Assembly (NCBI GenBank): GCA_963827655.1
Contig: CAWHCF010000023.1
Span: forward strand, 32,001-96,000
Source: an uncultured Acidobacteriota bacterium
GTDB taxonomy: Bacteria; Acidobacteriota; UBA6911
Length of the DNA stretch: 64,000 bases
Reading direction: 5' to 3'
This document shows, piece by piece, positions 18,616 to 36,852 of the stretch (its first letter is position 1; the number at the start of each line of letters is the position of its first letter). The notes beneath the pieces are model-generated. The model was not told the DNA's origin, searched no databases, and saw only the letters and a program-made list of their open reading frames with translations. A program made the translations under genes and the position numbers.

Positions 18616-18736
18616 GATTACCACCTCCTTGCGACATCTTAGCCTCTCCTAGTTGCCGACGGAAGCTTGTTGCCAAGATTTCGACCAATGCCCCGACCTT
18701 GCAAGCGGCAAAGATCCTGGCGCGGCGGATGCCAGC

Positions 18737-32113: not shown

Positions 32114-32137
32114 GCTGATAGCTGACCGCTGATCGCT
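32114..32137 (+). repeat. Heptamer tandem repeat (GCTGAYN x3)
   Basis: gctgata gctgacc gctgatc gct. Confidence 0.6.
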
Positions 32138-32172
32138 TAGCGGGGTCTACACTGCGAAATTATCACCAACCT

Positions 32173-32297
32173 TGATCGGGACCTTCGCGATGGTGCCCGC
32201 CTCGACGCTCCGCTCGATGGGCGCCCACTCCGCGCCCGCTGTAGTGCGCCGTCTTGATCCCGACGATCACGTCCTTGTGCTCGAGGCGCCATCTCGG
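32173..32297 (-). pseudogene. About 125-bp diverged copy of an internal part of the amidohydrolase gene (36186-36308)
   Basis: Aligns to the EMALKHKDVIVGIKTAHYSGPEWAPIERSVEAGTIAKIPI coding segment with a few substitutions and two 1-nt insertions. Confidence 0.85.
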
Positions 32298-32434
32298 GCG
32301 AGACCTTAGTCTAATCAAGCGCGCGGGCCTTCTAACGTCACAATTCGCCGATCACGGTCCCCGCGTCTGCGCAAAAAACCGCTCATCGGGACGGGTCCGC
32401 GAGTCTCTCGCATCCGCACAACGCGTGCGATCGT

Positions 32435-32761
32435 TTGACAATTTCACACGTATCCGCCACCATGGGGCGGTCTGCACTTTGCGCCGATGTGATCTCAGGC
32501 AGGTGCGGCGGCTCTGGTGAGGCTTCGGCGGCCTGAGGAGCCGGGCGGATTGGGTTCCGCCGATTACGGTCACGCCTGGAAAGGAGGTGGTCCAGTGAAT
32601 CTGAGTGATTACGTTTGGACGGAGGTGGCGTCCTCGTAAGGGGAACCGCCGGACACGTGGTGCTTTTGCGATATCTGGAAAGGGAACCCGATGAGGGAAC
32701 CCAACGCCACCAATGCCCACGGGAAGAGGCCCGCGAAGCGAAAGCAGATCCGGGCCTCTTC
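32435..32761 (+). ncRNA. Candidate structured small RNA with extended Shine-Dalgarno and 14-codon sORF (coordinates include promoter)
   Basis: TTGACA-N17-CACCAT; several hairpins with GNRA loops; GAAAGGAGGTGGTCCAG at 32579-32595; closing 11-bp stem 32723-32761. Confidence 0.55.
32595..32639 (+). CDS. Putative 14-aa peptide MNLSDYVWTEVASS
   Basis: GTG start just after AAGGAGGTG; TAA stop within a GTAA tetraloop hairpin. Confidence 0.4.
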   Translation: MNLSDYVWTEVASS

Positions 32762-32964
32762 TGACTACCGAACCTGCCTTCGTTTTTCAACGCTCCAGCA
32801 CTTCAGTTGGACGATGACTCAGTGAGCACGCCGCGCTGAGCCTGTGCGAAATTATCACCAACCCTCGGTCACTCTGCGGCGTCTATTGTCTAGCGCATCG
32901 AGAAAAGTAACCGATGCGTGTCTTCATCGAGTCTTCGCGTCTTTGTGGTTATTGGTGCTGAACC

Positions 32965-35433
32965 ATGCACGATTTGCGTCTCGCCTATCGCGCGCTCCGC
33001 GCGACCCCACTGGTTTCGATCGTGGCAATGCTGTCCCTGGCGCTTGGCATCGGCGCCAACACTGCCATCTTCTCCATCGTCGACAGCCTGCTCTTGCGCG
33101 CGCTCCCCGTGAAGCAGCCCGAGCGGCTCGTCCTGCTCGCCTACGAAAACGATCTTCCCACCGCCTGGACCAACCCGATCTGGGAGCAGATCCGCGACCG
33201 GCCTGATCTCTTCGACGGCGCCCTTGCGTGGTCGTCCACGCGCTTCGATCTTGCCCAGGGCGGCCAGACCGAATTCGTCGACGGCATCTGGGCCAGCGGA
33301 CGCTTCTTCGACGTGCTGGGCGTGCCGGCGATCCTCGGCCGCACCTTCACCGAGGCCGACGACCGGCGCGGCGGCGGTCCTGACGGCGCGGTCGCGGTCA
33401 TCAGCTACAACTTCTGGCAGAGCCGGTTCGGAGGCGCGGCCGACGTGATCGGCCGGTCGCTCACGGTGTCGCGCATACCGTACACGATCGTCGGTGTCGC
33501 CGGCCCCGACTTCTTCGGTCCGGACGTGGGCCGCACCTTCGACGTCGTGATCCCGCTCGGCACCGAGCCTCTGGTCCGCGGAAAAGAAAGCAGCCTGGAT
33601 CACCGGTCGAACTGGTGGTTGAGCGTGATGGCGCGGCTGAAACAGGGGCAGACAGTCGGGTCGGCAATCGCCTCGCTGCGCGCTGTGCAACCGCAGATTC
33701 GCGAGGCGACGATGCCGCAAAAATGGCGGCCGGAGCATAAGGCGAGCTACCTTAATCAGTCGCTGACCCTGAAGCCGGCAGCGACCGGCGCATCCGGGCT
33801 TCGGCGCCGCTATCAGCGGCCGCTCCTGACGATTCTGGTGGTGGTCGGGCTCGTGCTGCTCATAGCCTGCGCGAACATCGCGAACCTGCTGCTTGCCCGG
33901 GCGACCGCGCGCCGGCACGAACTGAGCGTGCGGCTTGCGCTGGGCGCCTCGCGCCTGCGGCTCGCGCGGCAACTGCTGGCCGAGAGTCTCCTGCTGTCAG
34001 GGATGGGCGCGGCGCTCGGCCTGGTCTTCGCGCAGTGGGGCAGCCGCCTGCTGGTCAGCCAGCTCTCCACGCAGACGAACTACGTGTTCCTTGACCTGTC
34101 GCTCGATGGGCGCGTGCTCGGATTCACCGCCGCGGTCGCGATCGGCACCGCGGTGCTGTTCGGCACGGCCCCGGCTTTCCAGGCCGCGCGCGTGCCGCCG
34201 ATCGAGGCCATGAAGGAGCACGGACGCGGGGTCAGCGGCGACGCTCGCGCGAGTCTCGGCAGCGCACTGGTCATCGCCCAGGTCGCCCTCTCGCTCCTGC
34301 TCGTCGTGGCAGCCGGACTCTTCATCCGCACCTTCGCCAGCCTCGCGAACCTGAACCTCGGGTTCGACCGCAACGGCGTCCTCGTCGTTACAATAAACGC
34401 TCAGCGGCTCCAGCTCGAGCCGGCGGCGCGCGCCGCGCTGTACGAGCGCGTGCGGCAGGCGGTTCTGCCTGTGCCGGGCGTCGCAAACCTGGGATTGTCC
34501 GTTATCACACCTGTGAGTGGAAGCGCGTGGAATGACCTGATCGTGCTTCCGGACGGCCCTCCGCTGGCGGAACGGGATCGCATTGCCTACTCCAACATGG
34601 TCAGCCCGGGGTGGTTCGCAACCTACGGGACGCCCATCCGTACCGGCCGTGATTTCACAGAAGCCGACCGAGCGGGCGCGCCGCGCGTGGCGATCGTCAA
34701 CGAGACCTTCGCGCGGCGCTACTTCAATGGCCAGAACCCTATCGGGCGAACGTTCAAGCTGATGGACCGTCCGGACAAGCCCGCTCCTCTGATGGAGATC
34801 GTCGGCCTGGCCGGCGACGCCGTCTATCGCTCACTGCGCGATCCGGTGCCGCCGACGATGTACTTCCCGATTCCGCAGGTGGATGAGCCGCCCTCGTCGA
34901 TGAGCCTCAGCGTGCGCGCGGCCGGCCGATCACCCGCGCTGCTGACCCGCAGCGTGGCCGCAGCCATAGGCGACGTCAATCGCGACTTGTCGCTCACCTT
35001 CCGACCCCTGGCAGATCAAGTCAACGCGGCGGTGATTCAGGAACGCCTGGTCGCGATGCTCTCCGGCTTTTTCGGGGCGCTGGCGCTGCTCCTGGCGGGA
35101 CTCGGCCTGTACGGCGTCACCTCGTACGCGGTGAGCCGCCGTCGCACGGAAATCGGCATCCGCATGGCGCTCGGCGCGGCGCCCGCCGGCGTCGTGCGCC
35201 TGGTCCTGCGGCGTGTCGCGGTCCTGGTGGGAATGGGAGTGATAGCGGGCGCCGGCGCCAGCCTGTGGGCGTCTCGATTCGTCGCGACGCTGCTGTACGG
35301 AACGCAGCCCTGGGACGTGTCAACGCTGACCGCAGCAATAGCGGTGCTCGCGGCCATCGGCGCGCTGGCCGGCTTTCTGCCGGCGCGGCGGGCGGCCAGG
35401 ATCGATCCGGCTCGAGTCTTGCGCGAGGGATGA
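32965..35433 (+). CDS. ABC permease, ADOP (acidobacterial duplicated orphan permease) family
   Basis: LALGIGANTAIFS, LLIACANIANLLLAR, RRTEIGIRMALGA, PARRAARIDP; no ATPase partner nearby. Confidence 0.93.
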   Translation: MHDLRLAYRALRATPLVSIVAMLSLALGIGANTAIFSIVDSLLLRALPVKQPERLVLLAYENDLPTAWTNPIWEQIRDRPDLFDGALAWSSTRFDLAQGGQTEFVDGIWASGRFFDVLGVPAILGRTFTEADDRRGGGPDGAVAVISYNFWQSRFGGAADVIGRSLTVSRIPYTIVGVAGPDFFGPDVGRTFDVVIPLGTEPLVRGKESSLDHRSNWWLSVMARLKQGQTVGSAIASLRAVQPQIREATMPQKWRPEHKASYLNQSLTLKPAATGASGLRRRYQRPLLTILVVVGLVLLIACANIANLLLARATARRHELSVRLALGASRLRLARQLLAESLLLSGMGAALGLVFAQWGSRLLVSQLSTQTNYVFLDLSLDGRVLGFTAAVAIGTAVLFGTAPAFQAARVPPIEAMKEHGRGVSGDARASLGSALVIAQVALSLLLVVAAGLFIRTFASLANLNLGFDRNGVLVVTINAQRLQLEPAARAALYERVRQAVLPVPGVANLGLSVITPVSGSAWNDLIVLPDGPPLAERDRIAYSNMVSPGWFATYGTPIRTGRDFTEADRAGAPRVAIVNETFARRYFNGQNPIGRTFKLMDRPDKPAPLMEIVGLAGDAVYRSLRDPVPPTMYFPIPQVDEPPSSMSLSVRAAGRSPALLTRSVAAAIGDVNRDLSLTFRPLADQVNAAVIQERLVAMLSGFFGALALLLAGLGLYGVTSYAVSRRRTEIGIRMALGAAPAGVVRLVLRRVAVLVGMGVIAGAGASLWASRFVATLLYGTQPWDVSTLTAAIAVLAAIGALAGFLPARRAARIDPARVLREG

Positions 35434-35502
35434 CTTCGTGTCCTGGTGTCCTGGTGGTATTTGTTTCGCAGCGCCAACCACAAAGACACGAAGACGCCAA
35501 GG
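35433..35502. repeat. Inverted arrays of 8-mer CACNAAGA between convergent genes (possible bidirectional terminator)
   Basis: acttcgtg tcctggtg tcctggtg ... cacaaaga cacgaaga cgccaagg. Confidence 0.65.
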
Positions 35503-36852
35503 TCAGGGCGTCCTGCGGGACCCGCCCGAACGCCCCGCGCCTCGGGTCCCATCCCAGCGGGGATCACCGGACGTGGTATAGTCCGGCGGCAGCGTGTTCC
35601 AGTCGGGCCGGCCCAGGCCATTGAAGTCGTAGACCACCTTTCCGTTGCGCAGCGTCATCTCGCAGGTCAGCCGCTGGTTGCCTCGCAGGCGGGCGCCGTG
35701 CATGTCGAGGTAGCCGAAGCTACCCTTCTCCAGCCGCAGCACCGCCACGTCGGCCGGCGACCCGACCGAGAGGTTGCCGAGTTCCTCGCGCTGGATCTCC
35801 CGCGCCGGGTTCCAGGTCGAGCGCGCGATGATGTCATCGACCGACAGCCCCAGGGCCAGAAACTTGCTCATCACGTTCAGCATGTCCTTCATGCCGGCGT
35901 TCATGCTTCCCGTGTGCAGATCGGTCGAGATGGAATCGGGAAGGAAGCCTTCCTTGATGGCCGGCACCGCAACGCGCCAGACGAAGCTGCCGCCGCCATG
36001 CCCGACGTCGAAGATCACGCCGCGCTTGCGTCCCTCGTAGAGCGCGGGGTTCAGGCGGCCGGTCGAGGCGTCGAGCTCCGCCCGCAGTCCGGAGTACACG
36101 TGCGTGTAGATGTCGCCTTTTCGCAGCTTCCGTGTGACCGCCTCGGCCATCGAGCGCTCGGCCGATGCCCGGCCAAAATCGACCATGATCGGGATCTTTG
36201 CGATGGTTCCCGCCTCGACGCTCCGCTCGATAGGCGCCCACTCCGGCCCGCTGTAGTGCGCCGTCTTGATCCCGACGATCACGTCCTTGTGCTTGAGCGC
36301 CATCTCGGCCGACGGCTTCGCCTCCATGTCGGCGAGATCCTGCTCGTACTTCCCGCCGCGCATCCCGTGGCCGACGATGTTCAGGAACGCCAGTACGCGC
36401 GTCCGCGACCGGTCGATGATCCGGTCCTTGAAATCCGGGAAGTTGCGCCACCCCGAGCTGCCGGCGTCCACCACGGTCGTGACGCCCGACCGGAACGTGA
36501 ATCCGTCCGGGTAGACGCTGTTGTCGCCCGCGTAGGAACCTCTCTCGCCCGTCCCGGCGTAGACGTGAACGTGGATATCGATGAGTCCCGGGGTGATGTA
36601 AAGGCCGGAAACGTCGATGACCTTGAACGCGCGGGACGGCTCGATCTTGGACTCGACCGCCGCGATCTTGCCGTCCTGAATGGCGACGTCGCGCACGGCG
36701 CTGATTTTGTTTTTGGCATCGATCACGTGGCCTCCGCGCAACAGCAGGTCATACTGCGCCTGCTGTGCCGGCGCCACGGCCGACAAAAGTATCGTCAGGA
36801 ACAGCGCCGCGAGCGGTAACGCCGGGCGCCTGAAACTCTGTTTGCTTGTCAT
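35503..36852 (-). CDS. Exported amidohydrolase/deacetylase (dihydroorotase-like EF_0837 type)
   Basis: PGLIDIHVH, GVTTVVDAGSSG, FDVGHGGGSF, ISTDLH; signal peptide. Confidence 0.88.
   Translation of the reverse strand: MTSKQSFRRPALPLAALFLTILLSAVAPAQQAQYDLLLRGGHVIDAKNKISAVRDVAIQDGKIAAVESKIEPSRAFKVIDVSGLYITPGLIDIHVHVYAGTGERGSYAGDNSVYPDGFTFRSGVTTVVDAGSSGWRNFPDFKDRIIDRSRTRVLAFLNIVGHGMRGGKYEQDLADMEAKPSAEMALKHKDVIVGIKTAHYSGPEWAPIERSVEAGTIAKIPIMVDFGRASAERSMAEAVTRKLRKGDIYTHVYSGLRAELDASTGRLNPALYEGRKRGVIFDVGHGGGSFVWRVAVPAIKEGFLPDSISTDLHTGSMNAGMKDMLNVMSKFLALGLSVDDIIARSTWNPAREIQREELGNLSVGSPADVAVLRLEKGSFGYLDMHGARLRGNQRLTCEMTLRNGKVVYDFNGLGRPDWNTLPPDYTTSGDPRWDGTRGAGRSGGSRRTP

What the first reader, a model, noticed from the sequence alone, without database searches (positions are those of the whole stretch)
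32435..32761. Unannotated structured RNA/sORF with a 17-nt complement to the 16S rRNA 3' end: possible ribosome decoy
Seen: in an ORF-free gap, TTGACA-N17-CACCAT is followed by hairpins (GGCTC..GAGCC enclosing AGGC..GCCT; GGCGGA..TCCGCC), then GAAAGGAGGTGGTCCAG (32579-32595), a 14-codon ORF containing a second GGAGGTG, a GTAA-tetraloop stem over the stop, and an 11-bp closing stem with a GAAA loop (32723-32761). Known: the conserved 16S tail is CUGGAUCACCUCCUUUC, whose complement GAAAGGAGGTGATCCAG matches 16/17 with the one difference giving a G-U pair; normal SDs pair 4-9 nt (the strongest other SD here, at 18620-18630, pairs about 11). Pairing this long would reach into helix 45. Inference: a small RNA that traps or protects 30S subunits (hibernation, anti-SD sponge, shield against MazF-like cleavage) or a type I toxin-like peptide gene with a gated ultra-strong SD. 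I know of no described family that fits.
Basis: partly seen in the sequence, partly recalled or inferred. Interest (0 to 1): 0.82.

Follow-up and report, generated by a model that had tools for sequence, protein, structure and literature searches.

The report
Ribosome-clamping small mRNA, rre type
This is a small, expressed RNA whose ribosome-binding site pairs with the whole free tail of the 16S rRNA ahead of a 14-codon reading frame; such RNAs were described in 2016 in alpha-proteobacteria (rreB/rreR), their function is still unknown, and here one turns up in a different phylum with extra structure.

Summary
Window 32579-32595 (GAAAGGAGGTGGTCCAG) pairs with all 17 terminal bases of this genome's own 16S rRNA (16 Watson-Crick pairs and one G-U). 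Outside the rrn operon it occurs once in 8.18 Mb. It ends in the GTG of a 14-codon ORF.

This is the hallmark of the rre small mRNAs (rreB/rreR, Hahn et al. 2016, PMC5711450). rreB binds 30S subunits through a 17-nt extended Shine-Dalgarno sequence, is translated weakly, and decays in a start-codon-dependent way. Rfam CC2171 is one alpha-proteobacterial subtype of this kind; the window scores 26.7 bits against its cut-off of 75.

New points:
- **Spread:** the same design occurs once per genome in 55-57 of 401 sampled genomes of the window's phylum. It also occurs in records titled Planctomycetota, Krumholzibacteriia, Fibrobacteraceae, Gemmatimonadota and Burkholderiales.
- **Selection on pairing:** departures from perfect complementarity are almost only wobble-preserving.
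- **Frame:** the reading frame is kept in 66 of 66 sequences.
- **Extra structure:** this type has a covarying 5' domain and a second, invariant GGAGGUGGCG inside the ORF, paired with a distant ACGCCACC.
- **Expression:** soil and rhizosphere metatranscriptome contigs cover 32490-32772.

Function remains unknown.

The parts
32435..32463 (+). Promoter-like TTGACA-N17-CACCAT (uncertain)
   Evidence: Present in the sequence. The -10 matches the consensus at only 3 of 6 positions and the promoter scan found no site. A TTGACA at a similar distance is seen in some relatives (L037, L038, L043; L235). A start here would lie about 20 nt upstream of where the RNA contigs begin.
32490..32772 (+). Transcribed small RNA (core, about 283 nt; read-through forms reach about 32843-32858)
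   Evidence: Metatranscriptome contigs from 4 runs of 4 studies lie on 32490/32495-32772 (X1), 32490-32858 (X2), 32490-32644 and 32615-32719 (X3), and 32490-32843 (X6). Contigs from three of these runs (X2, X3, X6) end at exactly 32490, one of them (X2) next to adapter letters. This is a weak hint of a 5' end; contigs cannot give the strand or true ends.
32509..32544 (+). 5' domain helix H1 (GGCUC/GAGCC core), enclosing an inner hairpin whose loop carries UCGGCGG
   Evidence: RNAalifold on 41 relatives: the pairs in columns 33-36/71-74 have changes on both sides in 8, 14, 6 and 6 sequences.
32544..32561 (+). 5' domain hairpin H2 (GGCGGA...UCCGCC)
   Evidence: RNAalifold on 41 relatives: the four pairs have changes on both sides in 7, 4, 3 and 4 sequences.
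32525..32531 (+). Loop motif UCGGCGG, one arm of a likely pseudoknot with the stretch just 5' of the Shine-Dalgarno sequence
   Evidence: In relatives the loop motif and the pre-SD pentamer change together: GGGCG/CGCCC, GAGCG/CGCUC, AGGCG/CGCCU, CGGCG/CGCCG. The exact complement of a sequence's own pentamer is present in 32 of 41 sequences, against 25 of 287 for pentamers of other classes. In the window only 4 Watson-Crick pairs (GGCG/CGCC) or a 5-bp alternative with two G-U pairs are possible.
32573..32579 (+). Pre-SD stretch CGCCUGG, the other arm of the likely pseudoknot; it abuts the 16S-complementary region
   Evidence: The motif CGCC(C/U) is conserved in the alignments.
32579..32595 (+). 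17-nt complement of the 16S rRNA 3' tail (extended Shine-Dalgarno, the '17c-region' of rre genes)
   Evidence: Among 70 unique relatives, deviations at positions 3-15 are wobble-preserving (A>G, C>T) in 69 instances and pair-breaking in 4. The 16S tail is identical in 5 of 5 genomes checked that carry such variants.
32595..32639 (+). Small ORF: GTG plus 13 codons plus TAA (MNLSDYVWTEVASS)
   Evidence: Taking sequences without any ORF criterion, 66 of 66 unique relatives keep the start-to-GAGGTGG distance a multiple of 3 (27, 30, 33 or 42 nt) and have an in-frame stop 15 or 18 nt later. Starts are GTG in 60 and TTG in 6.
32621..32631 (+). Second SD-like element GGAGGUGGCGU inside the ORF; its 3' part is one arm of a long-range helix
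   Evidence: Codons 10-12 (GAG GTG GCG) are invariant or nearly so at the nucleotide level, third positions included, while codons 2-9 vary at all three positions. RNAalifold pairs GGUGGCGU with ACGCCACC. GGAGG ends 8 nt before the codon that sits in the P site when the stop codon is in the A site; this spacing holds in 64 of 66 sequences.
32631..32644 (+). Hairpin UCCUC-GUAA-GGGGA with the stop codon in its loop
   Evidence: A stem of at least 4 bp around the stop codon occurs in 26 of 56 unique relatives, against 10% of shuffled controls. A stem of at least 5 bp occurs in 17 of 56, against 4%. The stems differ in sequence between lineages.
32698..32711 (+). Conserved AACCCAACGCCACC; ACGCCACC (32704-32711) is the 3' arm of the long-range helix
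   Evidence: 8 predicted pairs, mostly invariant or G-U variants. Two pairs show compensatory changes: GC>AU in 2 sequences, and UA>GC or AU in 6.
32723..32761 (+). 11-bp closing stem with an inner GC-GAAA-GC; sits where relatives have their terminator, but lacks a U-tract
   Evidence: Relatives carry a GC-rich hairpin followed by a T run at this position. The scan found no terminator here, and two RNA contigs run past it.

Best explanation
The locus encodes an rre-type small mRNA, the kind first described as rreB and rreR in alpha-proteobacteria.

**What it is.** An RNA of about 280 nt, with longer read-through forms. It carries a structured 5' domain, then a 17-nt stretch that can pair with the entire free 3' tail of 16S rRNA right up to the GUG start codon, then a 14-codon ORF whose 3' half is folded into conserved RNA structure.

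**How it most likely works.** The steps below are inferred by analogy with the experiments on rreB, except where marked.
1. The first few bases of the complement (GAAAG) are predicted to be single-stranded (shown here as a prediction only). They act as a seed.
2. A duplex of 15-17 bp with the anti-Shine-Dalgarno tail then clamps a 30S subunit on the RNA with GUG at the P site.
3. Because the duplex leaves no unpaired spacer, and the start codon is GUG, clearance is slow and translation weak.
4. The occasional ribosome that does translate must open the helix GGAGGUGGCG/ACGCCACC and the hairpin that holds the stop codon. It reaches the stop codon with the second SD-like element 8 nt behind its P site.
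5. This probably couples the RNA's structure or decay to ribosome engagement.

The physiological role is not known for any member of the kind. The peptide itself is probably not the main product in this lineage.
For: **Shown here**
- 17 of 17 pairing with the genome's own 16S tail, unique in the genome apart from the rrn operon.
- One copy per genome in 55-57 of 401 phylum genomes by pattern search. The covariance model R1 finds it in 34 of 137 class genomes.
- Deviations from the perfect complement are almost all wobble-preserving (69 against 4 at positions 3-15). The 16S tail itself is unchanged in 5 of 5 such genomes.
- The start codon is kept (GTG 60, TTG 6) and the frame is kept in 66 of 66 sequences.
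- Codons 10-12 are conserved at the nucleotide level.
- Helices H1, H2 and the long-range helix covary. The pseudoknot classes covary.
- The predicted unpaired probability of the first five bases of the complement in the window is 0.73-1.00; the rest are mostly paired. This matches the seed arrangement proposed for rreB.
- RNA contigs from 4 metatranscriptome runs cover 32490-32772.
- The same exact 17-mer scan recovers the published loci: rreB in Afipia broomeae ATCC 49717 (L132) and in Bradyrhizobium records (L139, L151), and an 18-codon sORF of the rreR type in a Dinoroseobacter record (L142) and other Rhodobacterales records.

**From the paper** (PMC5711450; abstract, Results and Discussion read)
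- rreB co-sediments with 30S subunits.
- The 5' extension of the SD is needed for this.
- Changing GUG to UAG lengthens the half-life from 10 to 37 min.
Against: - No experiment exists for this RNA or for any acidobacterial member. 30S binding, translation and decay are all inferred.
- Outside the ribosome-binding site there is no sequence similarity to rreB or rreR. Against Rfam CC2171 the window scores 26.7 bits, well below the cut-off of 75. Common descent with the alpha-proteobacterial genes is therefore not shown; it may be convergence on one design.
- The RNA is nearly twice as long as rreB and has modules that rreB lacks.
- In the window itself the pseudoknot is weak (4 Watson-Crick pairs), the -10 box is poor, and the terminator lacks a U-tract.
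- Distribution is patchy: only 4 of 50 other genomes of the same family have a hit to R1.
- Contigs cannot give the strand, the true ends or the level of the RNA.
- Within some lineages the peptide looks conserved with synonymous changes, for example D-K-H-G with GAC/GAT, CAC/CAT and GGC/GGT. A peptide function is therefore not excluded.
Confidence: 0.8

Rival explanations
1. It is simply a gene for a 14-residue peptide that acts in trans. The long Shine-Dalgarno sequence only sets the level or timing of its synthesis, and the RNA has no role of its own.
For: - The frame, start and stop are kept in 66 of 66 sequences, and all length changes are multiples of three.
- In several lineages a D-K-H-G-(L/M)-x-E-V-A pattern recurs with synonymous third-position changes.
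- Hahn et al. regard RreB and RreR as conserved small proteins.
Against: - Summed over codons 2-9, variability is the same at codon positions 1, 2 and 3 (about 11 bits each).
- The conserved C-terminus (E-V-A) coincides with an invariant nucleotide block that is an arm of a covarying helix.
- The window's family has quite different residues at positions 2-9 (NLSDYVWT, KSDCYVWT, YLLRCAST, DISKCAWT).
- Peptides of the different lineages and phyla are unrelated.
- RreB and RreR were unstructured, and putative RreB overproduction gave no growth phenotype.
Confidence: 0.12
2. It is a trans-acting regulatory RNA or sponge. Its GGAGG-rich single strands titrate CCUCC-containing small RNAs or an RNA-binding protein rather than ribosomes.
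For: - The RNA is structured and ends at the place where relatives carry a terminator hairpin with a T run.
- It lies on contigs of four soil and rhizosphere RNA libraries.
- It has two GGAGGUG copies and internal CCUCC- or CGCCACC-type partners.
Against: - Selection extends over the whole complement of the 16S tail, far beyond GGAGG, and tolerates only wobble changes that keep pairing with 16S.
- A start codon at fixed spacing and a preserved frame are not needed for a sponge.
- rreB is found on 30S subunits.
Confidence: 0.04
3. It is a cis-acting leader (attenuator) of the downstream MacB/FtsX-type permease gene at 32965-35433.
For: - Same strand, about 200 nt upstream of the permease gene (Pfam MacB_PCD and FtsX).
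- The closing stem lacks a U-tract, and two RNA contigs run past it to 32843-32858.
Against: - Neighbouring genes are not conserved across lineages.
- The three same-family homologues aligned show no similarity beyond the RNA's 3' end.
- Relatives have a GC-rich hairpin followed by a T run.
- rreB is an independent 165-nt transcript.
Confidence: 0.03
4. It is a decayed fragment of an rrn operon (antisense of the 16S 3' end), or a chance match.
For: The motif is the exact antisense of the 16S terminus.
Against: - Similarity to 16S is confined to the 17 nt. A BLAST of 32300-32900 against the own genome found nothing in the rrn locus, and Rfam found no rRNA in the window.
- The element is conserved with its flanks in dozens of genomes.
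Confidence: 0.01

Closest known systems
rreB of Bradyrhizobiaceae (Hahn et al., RNA Biol 2016/2017, PMC5711450)
   Same: - 17-nt perfect complement to the 16S 3' tail whose last base is the G of a GTG start codon.
- A 14-codon ORF.
- A stand-alone small transcript, single copy.
- The first bases of the complement are predicted single-stranded and the rest paired.
   Different: - rreB is 165 nt with only 8 nt ahead of the complement. This RNA is about 280 nt or more, with a 5' domain of about 90 nt made of two covarying helices and a likely pseudoknot.
- The peptides are unrelated (VSYSKRCHLAGIAR type against MNLSDYVWTEVASS).
- This type has a second invariant GGAGGUGGCG in the ORF and the stop codon in a hairpin loop.
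- It is in a different phylum.
- There is no experimental data for this one.
rreR of the Rhodobacter/Roseobacter clade (same paper)
   Same: Extended SD of 16-17 nt, GTG start, and a short ORF conserved within the lineage.
   Different: - The ORF has 18 codons and an unrelated peptide.
- In 23 of 33 rreR-type loci fetched here, a small RF-1-domain (ArfB-like, GGQ) gene follows on the same strand within 1.3 kb. Nothing like this is near the window's RNA.
Rfam RF01867, CC2171 (Caulobacter sRNA; seen on Northern blots in Methylorubrum, bioRxiv 10.1101/2022.01.24.477521, passages read; per that preprint first found in Caulobacter crescentus)
   Same: The family consensus begins with GAAAGGAGGUGAUCCAGUG and ends in a terminator. 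The window aligns to the whole model at E about 1e-3.
   Different: - The window scores 26.7 bits against a gathering score of 75. Only the ribosome-binding site and the terminal hairpin align.
- At the gathering score CC2171 hit 4 of 18 loci tested: a Caulobacteraceae record, Methylobacterium, Brevundimonas and Bosea. These are the 21-25-codon VSHC... type.
- It hit none of the rreB, rreR, acidobacterial or planctomycete loci tested.
STAB-SD 5' stabiliser of Bacillus mRNAs such as cryIIIA (recalled, not looked up here)
   Same: A strong SD-like GAAAGGAGG that binds the 30S subunit without serving ordinary translation.
   Different: STAB-SD has no start codon behind it and lies in the 5' UTR of a long mRNA, which it protects. 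Here a start codon and a conserved frame follow, and the RNA is a small unit of its own.

Membership tests
rre small mRNAs (rreB/rreR) | At least 16 nt of uninterrupted complementarity to the 3' end of the organism's own 16S rRNA, spanning the canonical SD and both flanks | tested here: met
   17 of 17 positions (16 Watson-Crick pairs and 1 G-U) against the own 16S tail.
rre small mRNAs (rreB/rreR) | The last base of the complement is the first base of the start codon (GTG) of a small ORF | tested here: met
   [quoted passage not shown] The start is kept in 66 of 66 relatives.
rre small mRNAs (rreB/rreR) | Small ORF conserved in length and frame within the lineage | tested here: met
   ORF lengths are 14 codons in 57, 15 in 6, 16 in 2 and 19 in 1 of 66 sequences. 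Every start-to-GAGGTGG distance is a multiple of 3.
rre small mRNAs (rreB/rreR) | Independent small transcript with its own promoter and terminator | tested here: inconclusive
   RNA contigs from 4 runs cover 32490-32772 and two run on to about 32850. Contigs cannot show ends or strand. The promoter and terminator scans found nothing on the + strand.
rre small mRNAs (rreB/rreR) | Tight binding to 30S subunits, weak translation, start-codon-dependent turnover | not testable with these tools
   Known only for rreB of B. japonicum (PMC5711450).
rre small mRNAs (rreB/rreR) | Sequence homology to rreB or rreR outside the ribosome-binding site | tested here: not met
   The peptides are unrelated. 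The authors themselves report no similarity between RreB and RreR, so this is not required by their definition.
Rfam RF01867 CC2171 | Score at or above the curated gathering score of 75 bits | tested here: not met
   No hit at the gathering score. With the E-value threshold: 26.7 bits, E 0.0008-0.003.
Type I toxin-antitoxin | Hydrophobic membrane-active peptide (usually 19-60 residues) and an overlapping antisense RNA | tested here: not met
   The peptide has 14 residues, is polar at both ends, and varies freely at residues 2-9 in relatives. The definition of the family is recalled. An antisense RNA could not be tested because contigs give no strand.
rrn remnant | Similarity to rRNA beyond the 17-mer | tested here: not met

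The most novel reading that the evidence does not exclude
RNAs that clamp the 16S tail may be a widespread class rather than an alpha-proteobacterial curiosity. They are found here in Acidobacteriota, Planctomycetota, the Krumholzibacteriia/Fibrobacteraceae records, and possibly Gemmatimonadota and some Burkholderiales.

In the acidobacterial type the RNA could be built to hold a ribosome twice.
- A pseudoknotted 5' domain presents the seed of a 17-bp duplex at initiation.
- A second, normally sequestered GGAGGUGG sits 8 nt behind the P site when the stop codon enters the A site.

On this reading the RNA would act as a gauge of free or intact 30S tails. It would report on ribosome availability, on 16S 3'-end maturation or on damage to the tail. 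Its own folding and decay would provide the read-out. It would be neither a bulk decoy nor a peptide gene.
Probability: 0.15. Interest if true: 0.8.

Novelty: new variant of a known kind. Interest (0 to 1): 0.55.

Why it matters
rre genes are a published but little-followed oddity. They are the only natural mRNAs known to pair with the whole single-stranded tail of 16S rRNA, and their function is unknown.

In the paper library searched I found only the original paper and citations from the same laboratory. In the parts of the original paper that I read they are reported only for alpha-proteobacteria.

Three results make the open question ("what is a ribosome-clamping mRNA for?") more general and easier to test by comparison.
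- The same design exists, one copy per genome, in an unrelated phylum and in several others.
- Selection acts specifically on pairing with 16S, since almost only wobble-preserving changes are seen.
- The RNA lies on assembled contigs of soil and rhizosphere metatranscriptomes from four studies.

The extra modules seen here are concrete handles for mutagenesis and for structural work on 30S-mRNA complexes: the 5' pseudoknotted domain, the second SD-like element in a long-range helix, and the stop codon in a hairpin loop.

Tried and rejected
**Rfam.** At gathering thresholds nothing was found in the whole window. The weak sul1 hit on the minus strand (18.7 bits, E 0.4-0.8) and the scr5239 and Thr_leader hits (E above 6) were taken as chance.

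**Repeat or mobile copy.** A BLAST of 32300-32900 against the own genome found only itself plus short chance matches.

**Conserved neighbourhood.**
- Two all-against-all clusterings of flanking ORFs gave no neighbour shared across lineages. The ORF calling was crude (stop-to-stop, high G+C), so weak associations could be missed.
I did not repeat it.

**Protein gene on the opposite strand.** Six ORFs in or next to the gap had no Pfam family at E 0.1 or better. The one exception was a sub-threshold Couple_hipA hit (14 bits against a cut-off of 22.5), taken as chance.

**Stop codon in a hairpin.** An MFE-based test gave 21 of 70 against 104 of 700 in shuffles, which is no clear difference, because the criterion was too rigid. 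I replaced it with the register-free stem test.

**Pattern hits in the two same-family genomes G063 and G210.** These lay in long ORFs and were dropped as chance. So were 21 places in 20 further genomes, plus one in G106, which also has a true member.

**RNA cover.** In the four runs laid, no contig covered 32300-32489 or 32876-33000. No DNA run was laid beside them.

**Not attempted.**
- Peptide searches: the 14-residue peptide is below the length limits of the protein search tools.
- Supplementary files of PMC5711450: they are closed, and Fig. S1 (an extended alignment) may list further taxa.

**Literature.** The search for the motif as letters returned 922 papers that use it as the 16S reverse primer; it was of no use.

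**Unpublished genome.** Genome G152 (locus L032) is marked unpublished. It enters only the count of phylum genomes with a member (55-57 of 401) and the listing of the REVPV subtype. No other claim rests on it.
Full report
**1. The observation**

Exact coordinates were recomputed.

The genome's single 16S gene found (G000:C8) ends ...GGCTGGATCACCTCCTTTCT. GAAAGGAGGTGGTCCAG at 32579-32595 is its complement over 17 positions, with one G-U pair. Its last G is the first base of a GTG that opens a 14-codon ORF, MNLSDYVWTEVASS.

In the 8.18-Mb assembly the 17-mer, with up to one mismatch, occurs only here and as the antisense of the 16S gene. The reversed control pattern gave no hit.

The ORF list shows only short overlapping ORFs in the gap. 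None of the six tested has a Pfam family. Flanking genes:
- upstream, a 577-residue ORF with no Pfam family;
- downstream, a MacB_PCD/FtsX permease at 32965-35433.

**2. It is a conserved element, not a chance match or an rrn remnant**

A scan of 401 genomes of the window's phylum for AAGGAGGTGRTCCAGTG with up to one mismatch hit 77 genomes. I read every place.
- In 55 genomes, G000 included, the motif is followed by an ORF of 13-16 codons ending in E-V-(A/P)-x-x.
- Two more genomes are atypical: L044 has a 6-codon ORF, and L046 has a start shifted downstream.
- The remaining 20 genomes had only hits inside long ORFs and were dropped as chance. The reversed control pattern also gave scattered hits at one mismatch.
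- One of the 55 genomes, G152, is unpublished.

Each genome with a member has exactly one.

A covariance model built from 37 non-redundant sequences (R1) found one hit each in 34 of 137 genomes of the window's class. By family the counts are uneven:

| Family | Genomes with a hit |
|---|---|
| f6 | 14 of 15 |
| f8 | 3 of 3 |
| f105 | 3 of 3 |
| f7 | 4 of 15 |
| f3 | 0 of 16 |
| f1 (the window's own; other genomes) | 4 of 50 |

The distribution is therefore patchy. The search used the stricter filters, and many genomes are incomplete.

Similarity to rRNA stops at the 17-mer.

**3. It belongs to a known kind**

With relaxed thresholds, Rfam gives one notable hit. RF01867 (CC2171, a Caulobacter sRNA) aligns over its whole model to 32571-32759, at 26.7 bits and E about 1e-3, against a gathering score of 75. 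The alignment shows why: the CC2171 consensus itself begins ...GAAAGGAGGUGAUCCAGUG. According to a preprint (passages read), CC2171 was first found in Caulobacter crescentus, was seen on Northern blots in Methylorubrum, and has no known function.

[quoted passage not shown] I read the abstract, Results and Discussion. The paper reports the following.
- rreB of Bradyrhizobium japonicum is a 165-nt mRNA with a 17-nt region perfectly complementary to the 16S 3' end.
- That region includes the first base of a GTG start codon, and a 14-codon ORF follows.
- The RNA sits in the ribosomal pellet and co-sediments with 30S subunits.
- Removing the three bases 5' of the canonical SD moves it to the soluble fraction.
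- Replacing GUG by UAG raises the half-life from 10 to 37 min.
- A 20-fold overproduction has no growth effect.
- They state that the function is elusive.

The words Rfam, Acidobacter-, Planctomyc- and phyla do not occur in that paper. Searches for rreB/rreR and for the paper's title found only the paper itself and three citing papers from the same laboratory. I could not see the supplements.

**4. How the known names relate to each other and to the window**

- In 113 of them the GTG opens an ORF of 6-27 codons.
- L066 is cut by the contig end.
- Six lie in longer ORFs and look like chance.

| Record titles | ORF type |
|---|---|
| Bradyrhizobium, Afipia broomeae ATCC 49717 and related records | 14 codons, VS..KRCHLA..AR; this is the published rreB |
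| Rhodobacterales | 18 codons, VSRKVLERGVGT...; this is rreR |
| Caulobacteraceae, Methylobacterium, Bosea, Xanthobacteraceae, Acetobacteraceae and others | 21-27 codons, VSHC... |
| Planctomycetota (11 loci) | 9-16 codons, often with D-C-x-x-G-L |
| Krumholzibacteriia (2 loci), Fibrobacteraceae (1 locus) | 15 codons, of the acidobacterial ...VEVxSL type |
| Gemmatimonadota (1 locus) | 21 codons |
| Burkholderiales (2 loci) | 24-26 codons |
| Acidobacteriota | several subtypes: EVASS, REVPVT, ...EVAEG, and a 6-codon VRYxLR |

At its gathering score, Rfam CC2171 hits 4 of 18 loci tested: a Caulobacteraceae record, Methylobacterium, Brevundimonas and Bosea. It hits none of the rreB, rreR, planctomycete, Gemmatimonadota, Krumholzibacteriia, Fibrobacteraceae, Burkholderiales, Acetobacteraceae or acidobacterial loci. 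CC2171 is therefore one subtype of the rre design. That link is my inference; the paper does not make it.

The complete planctomycete genome (Kolteria novifilia) has the 16S tail ...GGTTGGATCACCTCCTTTC. Its RNA therefore also pairs over 16-17 nt.

**5. Selection acts on pairing with 16S**

I compared 70 unique acidobacterial-type sequences with the perfect complement.
- Positions 1-2 vary freely.
- At positions 3-15 there are 69 instances of A>G or C>T, each of which keeps a G-U pair with 16S.
- There are 4 instances of pair-breaking changes, and only 2 of these are the opposite transitions (G>A, T>C).
- Positions 16-17, which would pair with the first bases of helix 45, are looser: A>G in 2, A>T in 2, A>C in 1, and G>T in 6. 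The last of these gives a TTG start.

These counts are of sequences, not of independent events. The sequences were found with a pattern allowing one mismatch or with a model. Several variants do occur in different families.

Five genomes carrying such variants all have the standard 16S tail. The changes are therefore on the mRNA side only. Two of the metatranscriptome contigs carry A32581G, again a wobble-preserving change.

**6. The ORF**

I selected sequences only by the SD motif, an internal [GA]AGGTG[GC] and the downstream anchor, with no ORF criterion.
- In 66 of 66 unique sequences the start-to-GAGGTGG distance is a multiple of three: 27 nt in 59, 30 in 4, 33 in 2, 42 in 1.
- All have an in-frame stop 15 nt (64 sequences) or 18 nt (2 sequences) later: TAG in 43, TAA in 22, TGA in 1.
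- The start is GTG in 60 and TTG in 6.

This argues that translation, or at least the reading frame, matters.

The peptide itself looks weakly constrained. In 41 unique 14-codon sequences, codons 2-9 vary about equally at all three codon positions. Codons 10-12 (GAG GTG GCG) are invariant even at third positions. Within some lineages synonymous changes in a D-K-H-G motif hint at peptide-level constraint, so a peptide role cannot be excluded.

**7. RNA architecture of the acidobacterial type**

*5' domain.* RNAalifold on 41 sequences predicts helices H1 and H2, with changes on both sides in 3 to 14 sequences per pair.

*Pseudoknot.* The apical loop inside H1 carries (U)UGGGCG. This is complementary to CGCCCA(G/A), the stretch directly 5' of the SD.
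- The two motifs change together in at least three alternative Watson-Crick classes.
- A sequence's own pentamer finds its exact complement in the loop in 32 of 41 sequences, against 25 of 287 for pentamers of other classes.
- This pairing crosses H1, so it is a pseudoknot.
- In the window it is reduced to GGCG/CGCC.

*3' domain*.
- GGUGGCGU (32624-32631) pairs with ACGCCACC (32704-32711), with G-U variants and two positions of compensatory change.
- The stop codon lies in the loop of a small hairpin. A stem of at least 4 bp occurs in 26 of 56 sequences, against 10% of shuffles.
- Most relatives have CCUCC a few bases after that hairpin. The window has CCGCC instead.

*Terminal hairpin.* In relatives a GC-rich hairpin and a T run follow. 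In the window there is an 11-bp stem without a T run.

*Accessibility of the 16S complement.* Partition-function folding predicts that the first five bases of the complement are unpaired in the window (0.73-1.00) and that the rest are mostly paired. This is the seed arrangement proposed for rreB. These are predictions without pseudoknots.

*Spacing of the second SD-like element.* The internal GGAGG ends 8 nt before the codon that occupies the P site when the stop codon is in the A site. This is much like the 7-nt spacing at the true start, and it holds in 64 of 66 sequences. What this spacing means is my speculation.

**8. Expression**

Twenty public runs share words with 32300-33000, and 17 of them are on record as RNA. 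I laid four.

| Run | Cover |
|---|---|
| X1 | 32495-32772 |
| X2 | 32490-32858 |
| X3 | 32490-32644, and two contigs from 32615 to 32715 and 32719 |
| X6 | 32490-32843 |

The listed pieces carry 0 to 7 differing letters each. Contigs from three runs of three studies end at exactly 32490, one of them next to adapter letters. This is a weak hint of an RNA 5' end about 20 nt downstream of the start expected from the TTGACA/CACCAT pair. It also coincides with where sequence conservation among same-family homologues begins.

Contigs cannot give the strand, the ends or the level of the RNA.

**9. Context**

No neighbour is shared across lineages. The window's three same-family homologues that were aligned (a fourth hit, G471, was not fetched) share the RNA but not the flanks.

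The association of rreR with an ArfB-like gene (23 of 33 loci) and of two Bosea loci with an RNase R-like gene is lineage-specific.

**10. Verdict**

It is wrong that no family fits.

The window carries a member of the rre kind in a phylum where, in the parts of the papers I could read, it has not been reported. It differs from the published members in three ways:
- a larger RNA;
- an added 5' pseudoknotted domain;
- a second SD-like element embedded in conserved structure.

I file it as a new variant of a known kind. The mechanism is inferred from rreB, and the physiological role is open.

Noticed in passing
window 32153-32171 and 32845-32863: A perfect 19-bp direct repeat (TGCGAAATTATCACCAACC) brackets the RNA gene, with its two copies starting 692 bp apart. 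Allowing up to 3 mismatches, these two copies are the only ones in the 8.18-Mb genome. This could mark an insertion or recombination event that brought the RNA gene here. That would fit the patchy distribution in the family (4 of 50) and the non-conserved flanks.
   Followed up: partly
window 32137-32300, minus strand: Short ORF fragments between the upstream gene and the RNA look like a remnant of a gene. Read by eye, one frame resembles an amidohydrolase-type motif, but this is a recollection only. Pfam found nothing for the two 50-residue ORFs.
   Followed up: partly
L048, L054-L057, L068, L069, L077, L081, L082 and others (Rhodobacterales loci): In 23 of 33 rreR-type loci a 139-190-residue RF-1-domain protein with a GGQ motif (ArfB-like ribosome rescue factor) lies on the same strand within 1.3 kb downstream. 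In most of these its GGQ motif is 250-380 nt from the SD motif. A further variant locus, L158, classed with the longer alpha-proteobacterial ORFs, has it too. None of the other 86 loci does. Hahn et al. do not mention this in the sections I read. It may be plain synteny or a functional link to ribosome rescue.
   Followed up: partly
L099 3314-5629 and L103 4162-6477 (Bosea): An RNB/S1-domain exoribonuclease (RNase R-like) starts about 290 nt downstream of the CC2171-type RNA on the same strand.
   Followed up: no
L044, L052, L070, L092, L154, L157 (Acidobacteriota records, two titled Candidatus Acidiferrales): A separate subtype: the same 17-mer and GTG, but an ORF of only 6 codons (VRYxLR, or VRYGKS and VRYKLP). 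Its RNA structure was not examined.
   Followed up: no
window 32490-32564, minus strand: A weak Rfam hit to the sul1 RNA motif (18.7 bits against a gathering score of 36.2, E 0.4-0.8) on the strand opposite the 5' domain. Taken as chance.
   Followed up: no
window 32965-35433 and 35446-36819: The downstream gene is a duplicated MacB_PCD/FtsX permease of 822 residues. It is followed by a 457-residue ORF without a Pfam family.
   Followed up: no
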